Shown piece by piece: positions 10,966 through 19,210 of a stretch of DNA of 64,000 bases; position 1 is the first letter of the stretch, and each line of letters begins with the position of its first letter. The stretch is from positions 101,448 through 165,447 of the forward strand of contig CAVWWD010000009.1 in NCBI GenBank assembly GCA_963758635.1. The letters run 5' to 3'. Source of the stretch: an uncultured Candidatus Rokubacteria bacterium. Lineage in GTDB: Bacteria > Methylomirabilota > Methylomirabilia > Rokubacteriales > CSP1-6. The translations under genes were made by a program, and so were the position numbers. A model generated the notes under the pieces. The model was given only the letters and a program-made list of their open reading frames with translations. It searched no databases and was not told where the DNA came from.

Positions 10966-12679
10966 ATGCCGTACGACCTGGTGATCAAGAACGGCACGGT
11001 GATCGATGGCTCCGGCCTGCCCGGCTACCGCGCCGACGTCGCCGTGACGCAGGGACGCATCGCCGCGATCGGCCGCATCCGTGAGAGCGCCCGCGAGGTG
11101 GTCGACGCCGAGGGCCACGTGGTCGCCCCCGGCTTCGTGGACGGTCACACTCACATGGACGCCCAGGTGTTCTGGGATCCGCTCGGGACGTCCTCCTGCT
11201 GGCACGGCATCACCAGCGTCGTCATGGGCAACTGCGGCTTCACGCTCGCCCCGTGCGCCGCGAAGGACAAGGCCATGGTGGTGCGCAACCTCCAGCGCGC
11301 CGAGGACATCCCGCCCCAGGCGATGGAGGCGGGCATCGACTGGCGCTGGACGACCTTCCCCGAGTTCCTGGACACCCTCGCGTCGCTCCCCAAGGGCATC
11401 AACTACTCCGGCTACATCGGGCACGCCGCGATCCGCACGTTCGTGATGGGCGAGCGCGCGTTCGACCAGCGCGCCACCGAGGACGACCTGGCCGCCATGG
11501 AGCGCATCCTGCGCGAGGCCATCCGCGCCGGCGCCATGGGCTTCACGACCTCCCGGTCGCCCGCGCACGAGACGCCGGACGCGCGGCCGGTGGCGAGCCG
11601 CGCCGCGAGCTGGGACGAGGTGCGGCGGCTCGTCGGCGTGATGGGCGAGGAGGGAGCCGGCATCTTCGAGCTGGCCGGCGAGGGCGTGGACCGCGCCCCG
11701 GGCGATCCCGGCCTGCGCGACTACCACGAGCGCCTGCGCGACCTCGCGGTGGAGACGGGACGCCCGATCACCTTCGGCGTCTTCAGCCGGCGCGACGCGC
11801 CGGACGTGTGGCGGAAGTACCTCGCGCTCCTCGACGAGACCGCCGCGCGGGGCGGCCGCATGTTCGCCCAGGTGCACAGCCGCTCGCTGTCCGCGCTGCT
11901 CTCCTTCAAGACCCAGATGCCGTTCGACCGGCTGCCCCTGTGGAAGGAGATCCGCGCGCTCCCGCTCGCCGAGCAGCAGCGGAAGCTCCGCGACCCCGAC
12001 CTCCGGCGCCGCCTCGTCGAGGCGTCGGGCGGCGCGCTCGGACCGGCGCGCCCTGGGCACCGAGGCGAAGGACGCCGACTACGACCGCCTGCTCGTGTTC
12101 GACACCGTGATGGGACCGCACCGCACCGTGGCCGAGGTGGCCCGCGACCGGGGTCAGCACCCGGCGGAGACGATGATCGACCTCGCGGTGGCCAAGGACA
12201 TGGACTGCTTCTTCCTCCAGCCCGTGGCCAACGAGAACCAGGACTACGCGCTCGAGATCATGCGGCACCCGCGGACGGTCACCACGTTCTCGGACTCCGG
12301 CGCGCACGTCTCCCAGCTCATGGACTCCTCGCTCCAGACCCACGTGCTCGCGCACTGGGTGCGGGAGAAGCAGGCGTTCACGCTCGAGGAGGCCGTGCGC
12401 ATGCTGAGCTTCGTGCCCGCCACGTACTGGGGCTTCGCCGACCGTGGCCTGGTGCGCGAGGGCATGGCCGCGGACATCGTGGTGTTCGATCCCGACACGA
12501 TCGCGCCGGAGATGCCCGAGGTGGTGGACGACCTGCCCGCGGGCGCGCGGCGCCTCATCCAGAAGACGCGCGGCGTGGCCGCGACGGTGGTGAACGGCGA
12601 GGTGCTCCTGCGCGACGGCAAGCACACCGGCGCGCTGCCCGGCCGGCTCCTGCGCGGCCCGAAGGCGCGGACGGCCTGA
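10966..12679 (+). CDS. N-acyl-D-amino-acid deacylase family amidohydrolase (frameshift ~12040)
   Basis: PGFVDGHTHMD, GNCG in the first frame; SDSGAH, EGMAADIVVFD in the second frame. Confidence 0.88.
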
Positions 12680-12748
12680 GGCGGCCGTCGTCGCAACGGC
12701 GGCGGTGAGTCGGACGGAGCGCAGCGCATCCGCACGGAGGAGGACGGC

Positions 12749-14085: not shown

Positions 14086-15765
14086 ATGAGTGTGCCGGGC
14101 GGCCCCCCAGGATCTCGCCCGCCGGCCGTCGCGGGCGCCGTCGTCAGCGCCGGTCTCGGCGGCATCGCCGCGAACCATCCCATCCGTGCCGAGCAGCGCG
14201 TCTTCGTGGGCCCCGCGACGGCGGCCGAGTCGAACACGATCAGGGTGGCGATCTTCCCCGTCGCCTGCTGGCGCGCCGAGGACCTGAACTTCTCCTTCGA
14301 TAGCTCCTTCGTCGAGGCAACCCTCGCCAAGGAGACGAAGCGGCTCAAACGGCTGATCGACCTGCACCCCGGCAGCCCGCTGAGCGTCTTCGGGCACGCC
14401 GACCCGGTGGGGCGCGACGACTACAACAAGGCGTTGTCGGGACGCCGCGCGCAGGCGATCTACGCGATGTTGATCCGCAAGCCCGAGCTCTGGGAAGAGC
14501 TGTTCCAGCAGGGTGACTGGAAGCCGAAGCATCTCCAGGCCATGCTCGGCTCCCTGGGCTTCGACCCCGGCCGCACCGACGGGCAGATGGACGAGCGCGC
14601 CCGCGAGGCCGTCCGGGCCTTTCAGCGGTCCAAAGGCCTGGGCCCCGATGGCCAGACGAGCTCGGCGACACGCAAGGCGCTGTACCTCGCGTACATGGAC
14701 CTGGTCTGCCGCGATCGCAAGGACGTGCCATACCGGCTCAAGCCCGACCAGTTCCTGGCGCGCGGCGCCGACCGCCTTGGCAAAGGCGACTACCAGGGGT
14801 GCGGCGAGCTCAACCCGGTGCGGATCTTCTCCAAGGCGGAGCAGGCGGCCTTCGACGCCGATCCCGACAAGACGGACCGTAACCGCGAGAACGAGCCGAA
14901 CCGCCGCGTGGTCGTGCTGCTCTTCCGCAAGGGCGCGAAGGTGACCCCCCAGCTCTGGCCGTGCCCGCGGGCGACGGAAGGCCTGGCCGGCTGCCAGAAG
15001 CGGCTCTGGTCGGATCATCAGAAGCGACGGGCCAACACCGACAGCCGGCGCGAGTTCGGCATCGATCGCGACGTGTTCGCGTGCCGTTTCTACGATCGCC
15101 TGAGCAACGGCGACGGCCGGCCGTCGCCGTGCGAGCGGATCCTCGAGTCGTTCAAGATCCGGCTATTCGACCTCCTCGCACGGCCGCTCCCCGCCGCGCC
15201 CTTCGAGGTCGTGCGCGGGGACATCGACGCTGACACGGAGCCGTCGACCGATCCGGACACGGCCGACGGCAACGGCGACATCACGCTGCGGGACCTCAAG
15301 GTGCCGACCGTCGTGACCGTCCGCTGGAGCCGGCCCCAGGCTCCCGCCGGCGGACAGGCGGCCGGCGAGCCTCCGCCCAAACCGCCGAAGTTCGAGTTCG
15401 AGATGGACGTGTTCGTCAACATCGACGCCGAGGGGCAGGTGGTCTCCGGAGCCTCGGGACCGATTCCCGAGGGCGACGAGCAGGACCCGAAGAAGCGAGA
15501 GGCCGCCGCGCAGCGCCTCTCCAACCTGGGCTTCACGATGGGCGAGACGCTGGCGGACAACGTCCGCTTCTTCCAGCGCGAGCTGGGCCTCGCGGAGACG
15601 GGCAAGGTCCGCGACATCGACCAGGAGCTGAAGGACCGGCACGCCGCCCTCGATCCGCCGTCGCGATACAAGGTGGGGTCGCAGGGGATCAAGGACGAGC
15701 CGAACGGCCCGCCGTTGATGCGCTCCGACGACGGCACGGACGACGACGAGGAGGGGAATCCGTGA
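14086..15765 (+). CDS. OmpA-like domain protein with peptidoglycan-binding domains
   Basis: FSFDSSF, FGHADPVG..YNKALSGRRAQA, NRRVVV (OmpA-C); LGFDPGRTDG...REAVRAFQ...GLGPDG and QRLSNLGF...RFFQ (PG_binding_1-like). Confidence 0.8.
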   Translation: MSVPGGPPGSRPPAVAGAVVSAGLGGIAANHPIRAEQRVFVGPATAAESNTIRVAIFPVACWRAEDLNFSFDSSFVEATLAKETKRLKRLIDLHPGSPLSVFGHADPVGRDDYNKALSGRRAQAIYAMLIRKPELWEELFQQGDWKPKHLQAMLGSLGFDPGRTDGQMDERAREAVRAFQRSKGLGPDGQTSSATRKALYLAYMDLVCRDRKDVPYRLKPDQFLARGADRLGKGDYQGCGELNPVRIFSKAEQAAFDADPDKTDRNRENEPNRRVVVLLFRKGAKVTPQLWPCPRATEGLAGCQKRLWSDHQKRRANTDSRREFGIDRDVFACRFYDRLSNGDGRPSPCERILESFKIRLFDLLARPLPAAPFEVVRGDIDADTEPSTDPDTADGNGDITLRDLKVPTVVTVRWSRPQAPAGGQAAGEPPPKPPKFEFEMDVFVNIDAEGQVVSGASGPIPEGDEQDPKKREAAAQRLSNLGFTMGETLADNVRFFQRELGLAETGKVRDIDQELKDRHAALDPPSRYKVGSQGIKDEPNGPPLMRSDDGTDDDEEGNP

Positions 15766-15862
15766 CGAGAGGGCACCGTGTGTGGACGCAGCATCGCCAC
15801 GACGGCCCGCACGGTGAGTCAGGGTCTGCATTGCGTCACAACCTCGACCAGGACGCCTGACG

Positions 15863-17197
15863 ATGGGCGGACCCGGGGACACGCAGCCGGCGCGCGCCAC
15901 CATGGTGGACGAGCCGCTCGACTCCACCACCGCGATGATCTACAGCCCGAAGGCTCCGCTCGCGTCGGCCGCCGCCGACGTCCGCGAGGACAGCCGAGCG
16001 GTGTGGGCTCACCTCTCCACCGGCTTCGACGTCGACAAGCCGTCGGTCCTGATGTACTACCACGGGCACAACAACCACGTCCTCATGACGCTCAACGCCC
16101 GCACCCAGGTGGCGGAGACCAAGATCCCGTCCTGGGTCCCCACGCATCGGCGCGGGCAGGCCGGCGTCCGCGCCTCCGGCCCCAAGTACGAGCTCGACAA
16201 GCTGACCGCCGGGACGTTCCATCCGCTCGTCCTCGTGCCCGAGGTCGGCTCCCCGGTGCTGACGTCGGCGGCCCAGCTCGCCGAGAACGCCAGTCAGCGC
16301 GACGCGAACAAGAAGGTCGAGGACGCCAACAAGGTGAAGCCGCCCGGGGTCCCCAAGGACCCCATCCCCTTCCCCAAGGTCCCCTCGGCCACCGCCGATT
16401 CGTTCTGGGGCACGGAAGGCGCCTCCGCGCCCAAGCTGGGGACGGCCACCGGCATCGAGGATCTGGTCGACAACTGCGCCGCGCGCCTCCGGGTGCTCCC
16501 GGTCATCAACAAGACGTCGGTCAACTACCTCACGAAGGACGTGACCCACACCAAGATCACGCGACTGTTCATCGGGGGGCACTCGGGCGGCGGCGTTCCC
16601 CTTTCCTCATCGGCCAAATCGAACCTTCCCCAGACGATACCGACCGACCTGGTCCTGCTCGACTGCAACTACGACCAGGACTTCTCGGGCTACACGGCGT
16701 ACCTGCGGGCGAAGGCCGGCGCGTCGAAGCTCGGCACCGCCACCGGCCAGAGCCGATTCATCTGCATCAACTTCACCGATTCCGGCACCAAGGGAAACGC
16801 GAAGAAGCTCTTCGACACGGTGAAGGCCGACGCCACGCTGGCCAAGGCGGTCGCCGGCAGCTCCGCCCCCGTGGTCGTCAACATCGCGGACACGAAGCCG
16901 CTCGGCAACGACACCGCCACGAACATCAACCGCGCCACCTCCCCGAGCTCGGCGTGGCCGACCGCGGACATCGCCTTCTTCACCCACGCCGGGCCCACGT
17001 TCCCGACCGGGACCAAGACCAACCCGGTGGTATCCCCTGCGCAAATCGCGACGTGGCGCACGCAGGCGACCACGAACCTGGCGCCCTTCGAGGAGATGAT
17101 CAAGAAATACGCCATCGTCTTCATCCTCACCAGCACCGTCCCGCACGACGAGGTGCCGACGATCTTCTTCCCGCTCGTCGTGAAGACGGCCCTGTGA
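15863..17197 (+). CDS. Hypothetical alpha/beta-hydrolase-fold protein
   Basis: VLMYYHGHN, GGHSGGG nucleophile elbow, LVLLDCNY, C-terminal PHDEVP (candidate catalytic His). Confidence 0.65.
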   Translation: MGGPGDTQPARATMVDEPLDSTTAMIYSPKAPLASAAADVREDSRAVWAHLSTGFDVDKPSVLMYYHGHNNHVLMTLNARTQVAETKIPSWVPTHRRGQAGVRASGPKYELDKLTAGTFHPLVLVPEVGSPVLTSAAQLAENASQRDANKKVEDANKVKPPGVPKDPIPFPKVPSATADSFWGTEGASAPKLGTATGIEDLVDNCAARLRVLPVINKTSVNYLTKDVTHTKITRLFIGGHSGGGVPLSSSAKSNLPQTIPTDLVLLDCNYDQDFSGYTAYLRAKAGASKLGTATGQSRFICINFTDSGTKGNAKKLFDTVKADATLAKAVAGSSAPVVVNIADTKPLGNDTATNINRATSPSSAWPTADIAFFTHAGPTFPTGTKTNPVVSPAQIATWRTQATTNLAPFEEMIKKYAIVFILTSTVPHDEVPTIFFPLVVKTAL

Positions 17198-17216
17198 GCG
17201 CCGGGCGGAGGGCCCG

Positions 17217-17880
17217 ATGAGCAGCTACCACGTCGTCCAGCAGGGAGAGCACCTGTCGGGGATCGCGAAGCACTACGGCTTCTCCGACTACCGGACGATC
17301 TGGAACCACGGCGAGAACGCCGCCCTGAAGGCGAAGCGCCAGAACCCGAACGTCATCTTCCCGGACGATCGGCTCTTCATTCCCGACCGGGAGGAGCGCG
17401 AGGAGCCGCGCCCCACCGACGCCCGCCACCGCTTCCAGGTGAAGAGGCCGCCGCTCAAGCTGCGCCTGGTCCTCGAGGACCTCTACGAGCGTCCGATCAG
17501 CCAACGCGAAATGCGACCTGCGCGTGGAAGGCGAGACGAGGGCCATCACGACGGACGGCCGCGGCCGGCTCGAGCAGGACATCCCCCCCGAGGCGCGGCA
17601 GGCCTCCCTGATCGTGCACGATCCGGAGACGCCCGCCGACGAGATCCCGATCGCGATCGACATCGGCCACCTGGATCCGGTGGAGGAGGTGTCGGGGCAG
17701 GCCGCGCGCCTGAACAACCTCGGCTATTTCGCCGGTCCCTTCGAGGGAACGAGCGACGAGGACAACCAGAACCTCTTCCGTTCCGCCGTCGAGGAGTTCC
17801 AGTGCGACCACTCCCTGACCGTGGACGGCAAGTGCGGCCCGGCCACGCAGGCGAGGCTCAAGCAGGTGCACGGCTGCTAA
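17217..17880 (+). CDS. LysM + peptidoglycan-binding domain protein (frameshift ~17498)
   Basis: YHVVQQGEHLSGIAKHYG...NPNVIFPDDRLFIP (LysM); ARLNNLGY...AVEEFQCDHSLTVDGKCGPAT (PG_binding_1). Removing one base joins the two ORFs. Confidence 0.85.
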
Positions 17881-17935
17881 TGCTGGTCCGCGGGGCGCGA
17901 TAGGTCCCGCCCGCGCGGCTCGCGCCGCACCTCGT

Positions 17936-18967
17936 TCAGTCGAACACGATCGTCCAGCCCGGCGCCTGCGCCTGCGCCTTCGTGTAGGCGACGCCGTCCA
18001 CCTTGAGGCCCTGCTCGTTGAGGAGCGTGATGATGCCGCCCTGGTTCGACAGCTCCATGGGCTTGGCGACCCTGACCCGGAGCGTCTCGCCCGGCGCGAT
18101 CACGCCGGACAGCGCGTGGCGCTTCTTGTTCTTGTCGGCGAGCGCCCATCCGGCGAGATCGAGCGGTGTCGGCGACGGGTTGAGCAGCGTCACCGTCTCC
18201 ACCTCCGGCGAGCGGATGTCGTTGACGAGGGCCGCGACGATCCGCGCCCGCCAGTCGGGGTTCTCGGGCAGCGGCACCACGGGCGGCTCGCCCGGCTCGA
18301 TCGGCACCGGCACCGTGATCGGATGGCCGGTGCGGTCATCCGTGTGGATCGACTGCGACTGGAACTTCAGGAACACCGCGACCCATTGCTGCTGACCGGG
18401 GAAGTGCAGTATGGCCCCGCCGTCCTGCCACACGCCGTTGTCTCCGGCGAAGCTGCCCCCGAGCGGGTTGCCTTGGTTCATGTGGATGTCGTGAACGCCC
18501 TGGTTCGGCTTGAAGCCGAAGATCTTGTCCTTCAGGTTCTCGGGCCCCCAGCGCTCGCCGAACGCGTAGAAGACCGCGGCCTCGTCGGCGAGGGCCCGCT
18601 GCACGTAGTGGTTGATCCGCTCGTTGAGGTCGTTGTCCTCGCCGGGCGCGTCCATGGGCAGGGGGCGCATGTCGCGCCAGTCGAACAGGTTCCCGCGGAT
18701 GAAGTCCAGCCCGCCGCCCTGCGGCGTCCGCTCCAGGTGATGGAACCCCGGGGCGAGCCCGGTGAGCCGATCGAGGACCGGATGCGCGAAGTGATCGACG
18801 ACGAGGAACGCCACCTCGGATGGGGCCGTCTTGGAGCGGACGTTGATGGCGATCCGCCAGTCGAGCTGATCGTCGACGAGGTGCACCTGGTAGTGGGGGT
18901 TGCTCGTCGTCGCGAGCCGGCGGTCGATCGCTCGGCCGACGACCACACCGTAGTTCTTGAGCGCCAT
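17936..18967 (-). CDS. DUF2278 (YukJ) family protein with C-terminal lamin-tail domain
   Basis: MALKNYGV, RIAINVRS, LDFIRGNLF, GVHDIHMNQGN, WQDG; C-terminal VTLLN...LDLAGWAL...LSNQGGIITL. Confidence 0.85.
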   Translation of the reverse strand: MALKNYGVVVGRAIDRRLATTSNPHYQVHLVDDQLDWRIAINVRSKTAPSEVAFLVVDHFAHPVLDRLTGLAPGFHHLERTPQGGGLDFIRGNLFDWRDMRPLPMDAPGEDNDLNERINHYVQRALADEAAVFYAFGERWGPENLKDKIFGFKPNQGVHDIHMNQGNPLGGSFAGDNGVWQDGGAILHFPGQQQWVAVFLKFQSQSIHTDDRTGHPITVPVPIEPGEPPVVPLPENPDWRARIVAALVNDIRSPEVETVTLLNPSPTPLDLAGWALADKNKKRHALSGVIAPGETLRVRVAKPMELSNQGGIITLLNEQGLKVDGVAYTKAQAQAPGWTIVFD

Positions 18968-19210
18968 GTGCCCCTCCTGATGCCCGACGGGCTCGGGTGA
19001 GGTGTCGGCCCGCCGACCTGGTCGCGCGCCACGCCGCGCCGGGGCCGGGGCGAGTCGGCCCGCGGCTCCGTCCTCGACAGCATAGCTCGCGTGACGATCG
19101 TGCGGGGCGGCTCGGCGCGGCGCGCGTCCCGCGATCCGCTCGCCGCGTCGGGTCGCGGCTTGACCGTCCCGTCCGGCGTGACGCACTATGCTCTTGTCCC
19201 AACACCGCCG

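What the first reader, a model, noticed from the sequence alone, without database searches (positions are those of the whole stretch)
14086..17880. Orphan three-gene cell-wall-targeting cassette: OmpA-like/PGBD, hydrolase, LysM/PGBD
Seen: three co-oriented genes, none with an evident signal peptide although they carry envelope-binding domains. Genes 1 and 3 share a C-terminal architecture: a short beta-rich segment (KIRLFD..RPLPAAPFEV..TADGNGDI / KLRLVLEDLYERPIANAKCDL..TTDGRGRL) followed by a RL(S/N)NLG(F/Y)..FQ PG-binding domain. Known: transthyretin-like domains on VgrG/PAAR proteins load lipase effectors in T6SS, and LysM proteins occur in contractile injection system loci. Inference: the flanking proteins are adaptors or anchors that deliver the central GHSGG hydrolase through a T6SS/eCIS encoded elsewhere, or the trio is an undescribed stand-alone antagonism system. 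No immunity gene is evident.
Basis: partly seen in the sequence, partly recalled or inferred. Interest (0 to 1): 0.75.

Follow-up and report, generated by a model that had tools for sequence, protein, structure and literature searches.

The report
Orphan type VI secretion effector cassette
Three neighbouring genes of a soil bacterium look like a detached cargo module of its type VI secretion "harpoon": an uncharacterised serine hydrolase, probably aimed at the cell wall, flanked by two wall-binding helper proteins.

Summary
The three co-oriented genes and their domains are real. Gene 3 is not one open frame here: an extra base at 17499 splits it. Contigs from 4 of 4 other metagenome runs lack that base.

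- **Gene 3** is not an orphan. It belongs to a family of at least 1353 proteins of about 220 aa (LysM, prealbumin-like beta-sandwich, PG_binding_1). The family tracks type VI secretion (T6SS) genomes. In 5 loci of 3 phyla it lies directly after vgrG.
- **Gene 1** has a conserved N-terminal motif, an OmpA-like domain and PG_binding_1. Its C-terminal third is homologous to the beta-sandwich/PGBD part of gene 3 (hhalign 97.4%).
- **Gene 2** is a rare alpha/beta-hydrolase with an invariant Ser241/Asp267/His428. Relatives are fused to peptidoglycan amidase, muramidase, peptidase, LysM and PGBD domains.

Gene 1 lies directly upstream of gene 2 in 6 of 8 loci. The window's genome has one T6SS cluster on another contig, and its vgrG has no neighbouring effector.

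Best reading (about 0.6): an orphan T6SS cargo-effector module with a LysM-type VgrG adaptor, a kind shown experimentally in Proteobacteria in 2023. Binding, secretion and substrate are inferred. No immunity gene was found. The eCIS reading is not supported.

The parts
14086..15765 (+). Gene 1, 559 aa: signal-peptide-less OmpA-like/PGBD protein, proposed cargo-specific co-adaptor or co-effector
   Evidence: ORF. Pfam OmpA and PG_binding_1. The family of its C-terminal region has only 8 members in 5.8e9 proteins. It lies directly upstream of the gene 2 homologue in the window, L004, L005, L006, L009 and L011.
14086..14505 (+). Gene 1 residues 1-140: conserved N-terminal motif followed by a partial OmpA-like domain
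   Evidence: 34-52% identity to the N-termini of 8 other proteins whose C-termini differ; several of them follow gene 3-type genes (alignment A7). The Pfam OmpA match covers profile positions 2-66 of 98.
14527..14682 (+). Gene 1 residues 148-199: PG_binding_1 domain
   Evidence: Pfam PF01471, best stretch 148-199, 60.8 bits for the whole protein.
15148..15642 (+). Gene 1 residues 355-519: beta-sandwich plus PGBD-like module, homologous to gene 3 residues 81-218
   Evidence: hhalign probability 97.4%, E 9.5e-12, 122 columns. Coordinates computed.
15863..17197 (+). Gene 2, 444 aa: alpha/beta-hydrolase of an undescribed family, proposed secreted cargo enzyme
   Evidence: No Pfam or NCBIfam match. 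122 cluster representatives at E<=1e-3 among 1.84e9. Model pLDDT 64.3, pTM 0.71. Best fold match 1gkk_A, Z 12.7, rmsd 3.8, 220 residues aligned; 261 chains reach Z>=8, and the 50 entries shown are nearly all alpha/beta-hydrolase-type esterases, lipases and peptidases by their titles.
16061..16066 (+). Codons for His67-Gly68: proposed oxyanion-hole HG motif
   Evidence: Invariant in 9 of 9 sequences (A1). The motif follows strand 61-67 in the model. Coordinates.
16583..16585 (+). Codon for Ser241: nucleophile in the G-H-S-G-G elbow
   Evidence: G239, H240, S241 and G242 are invariant in 9 of 9 sequences. The model shows strand 234-240, then a turn, then helix 247-251.
16661..16663 (+). Codon for Asp267: proposed triad acid
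   Evidence: Invariant in 9 of 9 sequences. It follows strand 261-266 in the model.
17144..17146 (+). Codon for His428: proposed triad base
   Evidence: Invariant in 9 of 9 sequences. It follows strand 418-423 and precedes the last helix in the model.
17217..17498 (+). Gene 3 N-part (residues 1-94): LysM-like domain, linker and start of the beta-sandwich
   Evidence: Pfam LysM 20.4 bits. 50% identity to residues 1-94 of the intact homologue in L004.
17499..17499 (+). Extra base that shifts the frame of gene 3
   Evidence: Reported as 'left out' in the covering contigs of all 4 runs laid (X1, X2, X8, X9; 4 studies).
17500..17880 (+). Gene 3 C-part: rest of the beta-sandwich, PG_binding_1 and the stop codon
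   Evidence: Pfam PG_binding_1 39.2 bits. 44% identity to residues 96-211 of the L004 homologue. Fold of an 89%-identical intact homologue.

Best explanation
The three genes are a detached ('orphan') cargo-effector module of the genome's type VI secretion system.

**Gene 3.** It belongs to a large family of about 220-aa proteins built of LysM, a prealbumin/TTR-like beta-sandwich and PG_binding_1. Stand-alone LysM proteins of vgrG loci have been shown to be needed for an effector to bind VgrG. By analogy, gene 3 most likely bridges the VgrG spike and its cargo.

**Gene 1.** It belongs to a set of signal-peptide-less proteins with a conserved N-terminal motif plus an OmpA-like domain. These proteins usually follow gene 3-type genes. 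Gene 1 ends in the same beta-sandwich/PGBD module as gene 3. Its C-terminal region is as rare as gene 2 and nearly always sits next to it. I therefore read it as the cargo-specific co-adaptor or co-secreted partner.

**Gene 2.** It is the cargo: an alpha/beta-hydrolase using Ser241/Asp267/His428. It is probably an esterase or peptidase acting on peptidoglycan or another envelope polymer of the target cell.

**The machine.** It is the single T6SS cluster on contig C6. Its one vgrG has no effector beside it.

**Shown versus inferred.** Shown here: domains, homologies, folds, and genomic association with T6SS, vgrG and PAAR. Inferred: all protein contacts, secretion, the substrate, and toxicity. 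The frameshift in gene 3 is either an assembly error or a strain-specific lesion.
For: **1. The gene 3 family is linked to T6SS.**
- Own phylum: the family is in 3 of 251 genomes, and all three are among the 20 of 251 with TssC.
- Acidobacteriota sample: the family is in 8 of 301 genomes and TssC in 31 of 301. The overlap is 7 of 8, against 24 of 293 for the rest (Fisher one-sided p 4.7e-7; 4.0e-6 without the centre genome). Related genomes are not independent.
- A Pfam-confirmed VgrG lies immediately upstream of a family member in L036, L046, L047 and L048. The same holds in the annotated Thiodictyon plasmid pTs485.

**2. Published precedent.** In PMC10673891 (abstract, section 10 and passages read), LysM and PG_binding_1 are among six domain families of vgrG loci. 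The stand-alone LysM protein Kalk_10460 was required for the effector Kalk_10455 to co-precipitate with VgrG.

**3. Fold of the gene 3 family** (model pLDDT 80.9; matches).
- Residues 1-57: LysM. Matches are the phage needle protein 9g8s_T (Z 8.1, rmsd 2.0, 55 aligned) and the AlgoCIS baseplate protein 7aeb_M (Z 6.7).
- Residues 76-150: beta-sandwich. Matches include the VgrG TTR domain that binds Tle1 (6sjl_A, Z 7.9, rmsd 1.3, 56 aligned) and the carboxypeptidase D TTR-like domain (5aq0_B, Z 7.1).
- Residues 151-220: PGBD (4c2c_A, Z 9.2).

**4. Genes 1 and 3 share this module**.

**5. The genes co-occur.**
- A gene 1 homologue lies directly before the gene 2 homologue in 6 of 8 loci: the window, L004, L005, L006, L009/L010 and L011.
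- A gene 3 homologue is adjacent in 4 of 8: the window, L004, L005 and L006.
- In the other two gene 1-bearing loci, a LysM domain is fused to the gene 1 homologue.
- A PAAR-motif gene directly precedes the gene 1 homologue in L009.

**6. T6SS is present wherever gene 2 is.** TssC is in 8 of 8 genomes carrying a gene 2 homologue.

**7. The own T6SS looks whole.** Found: TssB, TssC, Hcp, a gp25-like protein, TssF, a ClpV-like ATPase, FHA, TssM, TssK, TssJ and one VgrG. Hydantoinase genes follow vgrG.

**8. The cargo varies.** After gene 3-type and OmpA-like genes come unrelated proteins of 496-846 aa, a Reprolysin-like peptidase and others.

**9. Gene 2 is a hydrolase pointed at the cell wall.**
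- Catalytic residues are invariant, the fold is alpha/beta-hydrolase, and the Atlas neighbours are named alpha/beta-hydrolases.
- Of the 122 family representatives, I scanned the 18 that had extra length. Eight had Pfam domains.
- Those domains were: Amidase_3 + Muramidase + Peptidase_C70 + PGBD + M15_4 (P0175); Amidase_3 (P0154); PGBD (P0163); N-terminal LysM (P0157, P0236); CarboxypepD_reg (P0152, P0180); and one weak steryl-acetyl-hydrolase match (P0167).
- In L007 and L008 the gene 2 homologue lies in clusters with Extensin-like_C and VanY genes; L007 also has an Aspzincin_M35 gene.
Against: - The window's cassette is not next to vgrG, PAAR or any T6SS gene. The T6SS is on another contig.
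- Only 1 of 8 gene 2 loci shows a PAAR gene, and none shows vgrG within the DNA fetched.
- Of roughly two dozen gene 3-family loci that I looked at, 5 have vgrG directly upstream. Three of those five were chosen because they lay near TssC.
- One Acidobacteriota genome (G302) has the gene 3 family but no TssC hit.
- Within the own phylum, 19 other TssC-positive genomes lack gene 2 and 17 lack gene 3.
- No immunity gene is evident in the window. A periplasm-acting antibacterial toxin would normally need one.
- Gene 3 is out of frame in this assembly.
- The gene order here (1, 2, 3) differs from the order in L005 and L006 (3, 1, 2). So gene 3 here could belong to a lost neighbouring module.
- No protein contact has been shown.
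- The fold matches of the beta-sandwich (Z 7-8.8) are tied with many Ig-like domains.
- The gene 2 model is only moderately confident (pLDDT 64). Its matches are a flat list of esterases, lipases and peptidases, so the substrate is open.
- Homology of gene 3 to the experimentally tested Kalk_10460 was not tested.
Confidence: 0.6

Rival explanations
1. Same T6SS module, but gene 2 is a Tle-like phospholipase or lipase that attacks membranes rather than the cell wall.
For: - A GxSxG nucleophile elbow in an alpha/beta-hydrolase fold is also what Tle1-4 lipases have (recalled).
- A TTR domain loads Tle1 onto VgrG (passage in PMC10433429; 6sjl_A match).
- Lipases occur among the fold matches, for example 9n8r_A at Z 10.9.
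Against: - No Pfam family of any kind matches gene 2.
- The top fold matches are carbohydrate esterases, antigen 85 and esterase D types.
- Domain fusions of relatives are with peptidoglycan hydrolases, LysM and PGBD, and never with lipase-associated domains.
- No Tli-like immunity gene is present.
Confidence: 0.15
2. A T6SS-independent envelope module. The three proteins reach the periplasm or surface by another route and remodel or anchor the producer's own cell wall.
For: - All three carry or accompany PG-binding domains.
- The cassette is far from the T6SS genes.
- No immunity gene is present.
- The window's gene 1 has a moderately hydrophobic N-terminal stretch.
- One genome has the gene 3 family without a TssC hit.
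Against: - The families lack conserved signal peptides.
- The gene 3 family is strongly enriched in TssC-positive genomes and lies directly after vgrG in 5 loci.
- The family is multi-copy, with variable downstream genes, which is the pattern of effector islands.
- A PAAR gene is adjacent in L009.
Confidence: 0.13
3. A decaying remnant. The cassette is a slice of a former tandem array of gene 3 / gene 1 / cargo modules, as seen in G010. It was acquired horizontally and is no longer functional, with gene 3 truly frameshifted.
For: - The frameshift at 17499 is absent from 4 of 4 related populations.
- The order 1-2-3 matches a slice of the G010 array 3-1-X-3-1-X-1.
- G+C dips to 0.66-0.68 at 16-17.5 kb against 0.70-0.77 around it.
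- Other gene 3 paralogues in this genome look damaged.
- Gene 2 is absent from the other 250 genomes of the phylum.
Against: - Genes 1 and 2 are intact. Near relatives at 76-95% identity keep all three genes, with gene 3 intact.
- Other apparent frameshifts in the same assembly, such as the amidohydrolase at about 12.05-12.1 kb, suggest indel errors in the assembly rather than decay.
Confidence: 0.1
4. [quoted passage not shown] This is the first reader's alternative.
For: The LysM domain of the gene 3 family resembles baseplate LysM proteins of a contractile phage and of AlgoCIS (9g8s_T Z 8.1, 7aeb_M Z 6.7).
Against: - No Phage_sheath_1 was found in the genome, which is 87% complete.
- The gene 3 query had no match in 50,697 phage records.
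- All machine genes found near family members are T6SS genes.
Confidence: 0.02

Closest known systems
Stand-alone LysM proteins of vgrG loci (Kalk_10460 of Ketobacter alkanivorans; Wang et al. 2023, PMC10673891)
   Same: - A small LysM-bearing protein encoded directly after vgrG and before a variable effector.
- PG_binding_1 is likewise listed in that paper as a vgrG-locus domain family, including in Chromatiaceae. My Thiodictyon hit belongs to that family of bacteria.
- The proposed role is the same: bridging VgrG and cargo.
   Different: - Here the protein has three domains (LysM, beta-sandwich, PGBD).
- It occurs in non-proteobacterial soil phyla.
- It is multi-copy and mostly detached from vgrG in this genome.
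- It pairs with an OmpA-like partner carrying the same C-terminal module.
- I did not see the paper's supplements, which list the loci.
VgrG C-terminal TTR domain loading Tle1 in enteroaggregative E. coli (PDB 6SJL)
   Same: The beta-sandwich of the gene 3 family superposes on the VgrG TTR domain (Z 7.9, rmsd 1.3, 56 residues). That domain mediates binding of the Tle1 cargo (passage in PMC10433429).
   Different: - Here the sandwich is on separate small proteins, not on VgrG.
- The match is tied with many other Ig-like sandwiches.
- The cargo is not a recognisable Tle.
T6SS effector markers and adaptors (MIX, FIX, RIX; DUF4123, DUF1795, DUF2169)
   Same: The logic is the same: a conserved N-terminal domain or a small upstream gene accompanies variable toxins. 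This is discussed in PMC10673891 (passages). The conserved N-terminus of gene 1-like proteins behaves like such a marker.
   Different: None of these Pfam families matches any of the three proteins. The OmpA-like N-terminal domain has not been described as a T6SS marker in the papers that my searches found.
Tle1-Tle4 T6SS lipase effectors
   Same: A GxSxG serine hydrolase delivered as T6SS cargo (recalled knowledge).
   Different: There is no sequence-family match. Fusion partners of gene 2 relatives are peptidoglycan hydrolases. No immunity lipoprotein gene is present.
CE1 feruloyl/acetyl-xylan esterases, esterase D and antigen 85 type alpha/beta-hydrolases
   Same: These are the best structural matches of the gene 2 model, at Z 12.3-12.7 over 202-224 residues. 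The order of oxyanion HG, Ser, Asp and His is the same.
   Different: - Identity is 11-13%.
- There is no HMM match to PDB sequences or to Pfam.
- Large insertions (residues 69-108, 129-190 and 330-389) are poorly modelled.
LysM baseplate proteins of contractile phages, pyocins and eCIS (P2 gpX type)
   Same: The LysM fold is a close match to phage needle and AlgoCIS chains. In those machines, LysM proteins sit at the hub (Maxwell 2013 is in the reference list of PMC10673891; otherwise recalled).
   Different: The gene 3 family has extra beta-sandwich and PGBD domains. It sits in T6SS loci, not phage or eCIS loci.

Membership tests
T6SS LysM-type effector-recruitment proteins (Wang et al. 2023) | Contains a LysM domain | tested here: met
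   - The window's N-part scores 20.4 bits, just under the 20.9 cut-off.
- Family members carry PF01476.
- Model residues 1-57 match LysM chains at Z 6.5-8.1.
T6SS LysM-type effector-recruitment proteins (Wang et al. 2023) | Encoded in a vgrG locus, stand-alone after vgrG or fused to the toxin's N-terminus | tested here: met
   - Met for homologues at 34-68% identity: L036, L046, L047, L048 and the Thiodictyon plasmid.
- LysM is fused to gene 2-type domains in P0157 and P0236, and to gene 1 homologues in L009 and L011.
- The window's own copy is NOT next to vgrG.
T6SS LysM-type effector-recruitment proteins (Wang et al. 2023) | Needed for the effector to bind VgrG | not testable with these tools
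   This needs pull-downs or secretion assays.
T6SS LysM-type effector-recruitment proteins (Wang et al. 2023) | Sequence homology to the tested proteins (Kalk_10460, BRPE67_05220 LysM) | not tested
Alpha/beta-hydrolase fold serine hydrolases | Alpha/beta-hydrolase fold | tested here: met
   Best match Z 12.7, rmsd 3.8, 220 residues aligned. 261 chains reach Z>=8, and the 50 entries shown are nearly all alpha/beta-hydrolase-type enzymes by their titles. Model pLDDT is only 64.3.
Alpha/beta-hydrolase fold serine hydrolases | Nucleophile elbow G-x-S-x-G after a strand, and a Ser-Asp-His triad in that order plus an oxyanion HG | tested here: met
   H67, G68, G239, H240, S241, G242, D267 and H428 are invariant in 9 of 9 sequences. 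Each sits at the end of the expected strand in the model.
Tle1-Tle4 T6SS lipases | Match to a Tle sequence family | tested here: not met
   No Pfam or NCBIfam family matches at E<=0.1. That the Tle families are represented in Pfam is recalled, not checked.
Tle1-Tle4 T6SS lipases | Phospholipase activity and an adjacent Tli immunity gene | not testable with these tools
   No candidate immunity gene lies in the window. Activity needs an assay.
OmpA-like peptidoglycan-binding domain (PF00691) | Pfam match above the gathering score | tested here: met
   Gene 1 scores 29.0 bits against a cut-off of 27.2, but the match covers only profile positions 2-66 of 98.
PG_binding_1 (PF01471) | Pfam match above the gathering score | tested here: met
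   Gene 1 scores 60.8 bits and the gene 3 C-part 39.2 bits, against a cut-off of 23. Model residues 151-220 match CtpB and SleB PGBDs at Z 8.2-9.2.
Prealbumin/transthyretin-like beta-sandwich | The shared segment adopts this fold | tested here: met
   Model residues 76-150 match CnaB, macroglobulin and carboxypeptidase D TTR-like domains and the VgrG TTR at Z 6.7-8.8. Related small proteins and VgrGs in these loci give weak CarboxypepD_reg/SpaA Pfam hits.
Prealbumin/transthyretin-like beta-sandwich | Specific relationship to the cargo-binding TTR domain of VgrG | tested here: inconclusive
   6sjl_A gives Z 7.9, rmsd 1.3, 56 residues aligned. It is tied within 1 Z unit with unrelated sandwiches, and the tool warns that Z under 8 can be a common arrangement.
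eCIS / phage-tail-like particle loci | Sheath, tube and baseplate genes in the genome or next to family members | tested here: not met
   Phage_sheath_1 was not found in G000, which is 87% complete. There were no phage-record hits. The neighbours are T6SS genes.

The most novel reading that the evidence does not exclude
Genes 1 and 3 define an undescribed two-part class of secreted T6SS tethers that share a TTR-like beta-sandwich plus PGBD module.

- The LysM/TTR protein docks on the VgrG hub, as LysM proteins do in phage baseplates.
- The OmpA-like partner holds a specific cargo enzyme.
- After firing, the several peptidoglycan-binding domains pin the hydrolase to the victim's cell wall.

The conserved N-terminal motif plus OmpA-like domain would then be a new effector marker, widespread in Acidobacteriota, Planctomycetota and related soil phyla. 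Gene 2 would found a new family of cell-wall-directed serine hydrolase toxins.
Probability: 0.2. Interest if true: 0.7.

Novelty: new variant of a known kind. Interest (0 to 1): 0.5.

Why it matters
**What is known.** T6SS effector loading has been worked out almost entirely in Proteobacteria. The LysM route was shown there only in 2023.

**What this locus and its relatives add.**
- A compact LysM / beta-sandwich / PGBD adaptor family is abundant in soil metagenomes, with at least 1353 clusters at 90% identity.
- That family marks T6SS cargo islands in poorly studied phyla.
- It pairs with a second, OmpA-like protein carrying the same module.
- It travels with many unannotated cargo genes. One of them is a serine hydrolase family with no Pfam model, whose fusions point to peptidoglycan.

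**Why that is useful.** If confirmed, the family gives a practical handle for finding new antibacterial enzymes in uncultured bacteria, and a testable model of how two wall-binding helpers load a cargo.

**Caveat.** All of this is inference from sequence, fold and neighbourhood. No function was measured.

Tried and rejected
- **Complex prediction** of gene 1 (residues 61-530) with gene 2: verdict 'no answer', score 0.00 in two runs. This is no evidence either way.
- **Profile search of PDB sequences** with the gene 2 alignment: only a chance neuroglobin hit at E 0.095.
- **Foldseek against PDB:** no match at E<=0.001 for either model. VIA-align was needed.
- **Metagenome contig scan** with gene 2: 144 pattern matches, 1 confirmed short locus (L003, 1311 bases), which was of no use for context.
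I repeated it with 7 sequences, and the only pattern used was the nucleophile-elbow peptide. Relatives that vary there, such as P0009, could not be found.
- **Insertion test by synteny:** the downstream DUF2278-LTD gene is itself found in only 1 of 40 relatives, so no empty site could be compared.
- **Promoter and terminator scan:** 0 promoter-like sites. There were 6 terminator-like sites against 2.1 expected, and none sat at a gene end in a way that defines the operon.
- **Earlier findings of this scan:** nothing for this genome, sequence or words.
- **Phage or eCIS origin:** rejected.
- **Plain BLASTP between genes 1 and 3:** too weak to show the shared module. The profile comparison was needed.
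- **ORF picking:** my first greedy ORF picker chose wrong-strand ORFs in L005 and L006 and hid the gene 3 homologues there. This was corrected.
- **G302** carries the gene 3 family without a TssC hit. I did not look into its completeness.

Full report
**1. What is in the sequence**

The region lies in a very G+C-rich genome (0.66-0.77 in this stretch). It holds three + strand genes.

- Gene 1 (14086-15765, 559 aa) has a Pfam OmpA match and PG_binding_1. OmpA scores 29.0 bits against a cut-off of 27.2, over residues 69-131, covering only the first two thirds of the profile. PG_binding_1 scores 60.8 bits in two stretches, the best at 148-199.
- Gene 2 (15863-17197, 444 aa) matches nothing in Pfam or NCBIfam.
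- Gene 3 is not a single ORF. Residues 1-94 are read from 17217-17498. The rest is in the +1 frame, from 17500 to the stop at 17878-17880.

An intact 211-aa homologue (L004) aligns its residues 1-94 to the N-part (50% identity) and its residues 96-211 to the C-part (44%). So there is exactly one extra base, at 17499.

I laid Logan contigs of four soil and bog metagenome runs from four studies on 16900-18100. The only indel reported was 'one letter left out at 17499', and it was present in the covering contig of all 4 of 4 runs. Those contigs differ from the window at many other positions, so they come from relatives, not the source. The frameshift is therefore specific to this assembly or strain.

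The same window has another apparent frameshift, in the amidohydrolase gene near 12.05-12.1 kb. Two other gene 3 paralogues in this genome also look disturbed. I therefore lean towards assembly indel errors, but this is not shown.

**2. Signal peptides**

Only a crude hydropathy scan was possible.

- Genes 2 and 3 and their homologues have no hydrophobic N-terminal stretch.
- Gene 1 of the window has an Ala/Gly/Val-rich stretch (mean Kyte-Doolittle 1.82 over residues 18-29).
- In homologues, the aligned residues are polar and the N-termini are acidic.
- Three neighbouring proteins that look exported, used as controls, scored 1.76-2.72.

**3. Gene 2 is a rare alpha/beta-hydrolase**

*Rarity.*
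- The word-indexed search of 5.8 billion proteins gave 8 homologues among the 8000 candidates scored.
- The exhaustive profile search of 1.84 billion cluster representatives gave 122 at E<=1e-3, 97 at E<=1e-10 and 64 at E<=1e-30.
- None of the other 250 genomes of the window's phylum has it.

*Catalytic residues.* In the 9-sequence alignment, H67-G68, G239-H-S241-G, D267 and H428 are invariant.

*Model and fold.*
- The AlphaFold model (pLDDT 64.3, pTM 0.71) places each of these residues at the end of a strand, in the canonical alpha/beta-hydrolase order.
- Foldseek found nothing at E<=0.001.
- VIA-align gave a long, flat list of alpha/beta-hydrolases. The best were feruloyl and acetyl-xylan esterases and antigen 85 (Z 12.3-12.7, rmsd 3.3-3.9, 202-224 residues aligned). 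261 chains reached Z>=8.
- The protein-language-model Atlas also placed it among unnamed 'alpha/beta hydrolase' clusters (score 0.96).
- The fold is clear. The substrate is not.

*What the relatives are fused to.* Of the 122 representatives, I scanned the 18 that carried extra length. Eight had Pfam domains:
- P0175, a 1834-aa protein: Amidase_3, Muramidase, Peptidase_C70, PGBD and Peptidase_M15_4 ahead of the gene 2 domain.
- P0154: Amidase_3 plus the gene 2 domain.
- P0163: the gene 2 domain plus PG_binding_1.
- P0157 and P0236: N-terminal LysM.
- P0152 and P0180: CarboxypepD_reg.
- P0167: one weak hydrolase match.

In two Acidobacteriota loci (L007, L008), the homologue lies among Extensin-like_C and VanY genes, and L007 also has an Aspzincin_M35 gene. 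This association is my reason for preferring a cell-wall substrate over lipids.

**4. Gene 1 and gene 2 travel together**

A pattern scan of 185,579 species genomes gave 8 loci in 7 genomes: Acidobacteriota, Phycisphaerae and Planctomycetales MAGs. With the window, that makes 8 loci, counting L009 and L010 as one split locus.

- A gene 1 homologue lies directly before the gene 2 homologue in 6 of 8 loci: the window, L004, L005, L006, L009/L010 and L011. The exceptions are L007 and L008.
- The family of gene 1's C-terminal region is as rare as gene 2: 8 proteins among 3584 candidates.
- In L009, a PAAR-motif protein (E 3e-8) directly precedes the gene 1 homologue.

**5. Gene 3 belongs to a large, T6SS-linked family**

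I read gene 3 through with X at the break. It then finds 1353 proteins at E<=1e-3 among 1488 candidates. Of the 120 listed, by my count 105 are 215-224 aa long, at 53-89% identity. Near relatives of the window (P0020 on the same 57,984-base contig as the 95% gene 1 relative, and P0021) have it intact at 220 aa.

*Own phylum.*
- The family is in 3 of 251 genomes (G000 with six copies, G186 and G010).
- All three are among the 20 of 251 genomes with the sheath protein TssC.

*Acidobacteriota sample of 301 genomes.*
- 8 have the family and 31 have TssC.
- 7 of the 8 overlap, against 24 of the other 293.
- Fisher one-sided p is 4.7e-7, or 4.0e-6 without the centre genome. Related genomes are not independent, so these p values overstate the case.

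*Other counts.*
- TssC is present in all 8 of 8 genomes with a gene 2 homologue.
- The gene 3 family is in 6 of the 7 other such genomes. G254 lacks a hit.

*Direct linkage to vgrG.*
- In G010, a VgrG is followed by a string of seven genes. In order they are: a gene 3-type gene (248 aa), an OmpA+PGBD protein (546 aa), an unknown (739 aa), a gene 3-type gene (220 aa, 68% identity), an OmpA-like protein (472 aa), an unknown (496 aa) and an OmpA-like protein (779 aa). TssC is next door.
- In three Acidobacteriota main T6SS clusters, a Pfam-confirmed VgrG is immediately followed by a gene 3-type gene and then a variable protein. In one case that protein is a PGBD protein plus a Reprolysin-like peptidase (L046, L047, L048).
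- In the annotated plasmid pTs485 of Thiodictyon syntrophicum, the order is PAAR (divergent), VgrG, a gene 3-type 'peptidoglycan-binding protein' (34% identity), a PGBD protein, then a hypothetical protein.

I must add two caveats. Three of these five loci were picked because they lay near TssC. Most of the other roughly twenty family loci that I looked at have no vgrG beside them. Those include the six in G000, those in G186, and L004-L006, L049-L051 and Eleftheria.

**6. Genes 1 and 3 share a module, and it is a prealbumin-like sandwich plus PGBD**

- Profile-profile comparison of the gene 3 family (20 sequences) with the gene 1 family (10 sequences) gave probability 97.4% and E 9.5e-12. It aligned gene 3 residues 81-218 with gene 1 residues 355-519.
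- I modelled an 89%-identical intact gene 3 homologue (pLDDT 80.9). The model has three domains.
  - Residues 1-57 are LysM. The best match is the needle protein of a contractile phage, 9g8s_T (Z 8.1, rmsd 2.0, 55 aligned). Others are AlgoCIS 7aeb_M (Z 6.7) and ordinary LysM domains (Z 6.5-6.9).
  - Residues 76-150 are a beta-sandwich. Matches include 8b73_B (Z 8.8), the TTR domain of the VgrG that carries Tle1 (6sjl_A, Z 7.9, rmsd 1.3, 56 aligned), the transthyretin-like domain of carboxypeptidase D (5aq0_B, Z 7.1), and CnaB and macroglobulin domains.
  - Residues 151-220 are PG_binding_1 (4c2c_A, Z 9.2).
The specific tie to the VgrG TTR cannot be separated from other sandwiches at these scores.

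The N-terminal 140 residues of gene 1 are 34-52% identical to the N-termini of proteins with quite different C-termini, several of which follow gene 3-type genes. This is the behaviour of an effector marker domain.

**7. The three genes as a set**

- Gene 3 homologues are adjacent to the gene 1 / gene 2 pair in 4 of 8 loci.
  - The window has the order 1-2-3.
  - L005 and L006 have the order 3-1-2, preceded by a small beta-sandwich protein.
  - L004 has gene 3 and that small protein on the opposite strand.
- In the two Planctomycetota-type loci, the gene 1 homologue itself begins with or contains a LysM domain. This is a fusion that links the two helper functions.
- The window's order equals a slice of the G010 array. 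So gene 3 here may serve this module, or it may be the head of a lost one.

**8. The machine**

G000 (87% complete, 12 contigs) has one T6SS cluster on contig C6. It holds TssB, TssC, Hcp, a gp25-like protein, TssF, a ClpV-like ATPase, FHA proteins, TssM, TssK and TssJ, plus one VgrG. Hydantoinase genes, not effectors, follow that VgrG. One PAAR gene is on C3. No phage-type sheath was found.

**9. Comparison with what is known**

Wang et al. 2023 (PMC10673891) is the closest precedent. I read its abstract, section 10 and passages, but not its supplements.

- It reports LysM and PG_binding_1 among six domain families that occur in vgrG loci, either stand-alone or fused to VgrG or to toxins.
- It shows by co-immunoprecipitation that the effector Kalk_10455 binds VgrG only when the stand-alone LysM protein Kalk_10460 is present.
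- In its data, PG_binding_1 was confined to Gammaproteobacteria including Chromatiaceae. That fits my Thiodictyon hit.

A review passage (PMC10433429) states that the VgrG TTR domain mediates Tle1 binding.

So the concept of a LysM/PGBD adaptor is known. I did not find three things in the papers returned by my searches:
- the three-domain 220-aa family in Acidobacteriota and neighbouring phyla;
- its OmpA-like partner sharing the sandwich/PGBD module;
- the gene 2 hydrolase family.

**10. Verdict**

The T6SS-adaptor interpretation is supported by association, fusion and fold evidence, and by a published precedent. No contact, secretion or activity has been shown, and no immunity gene is seen. 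I rate it as a new variant of a known kind, of moderate interest.

Noticed in passing
window 10966-12708 (+): The amidohydrolase (Amidohydro_3) gene looks frameshifted near 12.05-12.1 kb. The long ORF runs into low-complexity Arg/Gly/Pro text, while a separate ORF at 12095-12679 carries a sensible C-terminal part. This suggests indel errors in the assembly.
   Followed up: partly
window 17936-19000 (-): A convergent gene encodes a DUF2278 domain (E 2.9e-75) fused to a lamin-tail domain. A relative was found in only 1 of 40 related genomes searched.
   Followed up: partly
G000 contigs C8:960569-961216, C2:142382-142939, C9:356416-357030, C4:11955-12569, C7:283988-284638 (loci L029-L033): There are five more gene 3-family copies in the same genome. 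Two are followed by OmpA-like proteins of 549-774 aa, and others by unknown proteins of 704-846 aa. The C8 copy has a garbled PGBD stretch, and the C2 copy lacks its first 30 residues in frame.
   Followed up: partly
L007 1-6349 and L008 1-6378 (Acidobacteriota MAGs): Upstream of the gene 2 homologues lie conserved clusters: repeated 248-aa proteins, a 148-aa protein, a 165-aa protein that looked like a metallopeptidase to me (motifs recalled; no Pfam match at E<=1), a 484-492-aa unknown, Extensin-like_C and VanY genes in both loci, and an Aspzincin_M35 gene in L007. Some have Cys-rich N-termini. This may be another kind of effector island.
   Followed up: partly
L010 589-951 and 951-3284; L011 5024-5431 and 5428-7890: In the Planctomycetota-type loci, the gene 2 homologue is followed by a conserved small protein (120-135 aa, no Pfam match) and a 777-820-aa protein. 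In L010 that larger protein has a CarboxypepD_reg domain. The small protein is a candidate immunity or accessory protein.
   Followed up: no
L004 5634-6359 (-); L005 3431-4048 (+); L006 5279-5923 (+): A small protein (205-241 aa) accompanies the gene 3 homologue in the three Acidobacteriota cassettes. It has a similar C-terminal tail in all three; the L004 copy gave weak CarboxypepD_reg/prealbumin-like Pfam hits, and the L005 and L006 copies were not scanned. It has no counterpart in the window.
   Followed up: no
L046 3589-5985 (-): This VgrG carries a weak C-terminal CarboxypepD_reg/prealbumin-like match (residues 736-789). It is followed by a gene 3-type gene, a PGBD protein, a Reprolysin-like peptidase, a lipoprotein-like protein and a PAAR-looking fragment.
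   Followed up: partly
L004 2500-4800 and 10700-13600: By eye, the ORFs flanking the Terriglobia cassette look like insertion-sequence transposases. I did not test them with any family library.
   Followed up: no
G256:C406:2338-9327: Three gene 3-family copies are spaced about 3.2 kb apart on one contig of the Phycisphaerae MAG. This suggests a tandem array of modules.
   Followed up: no
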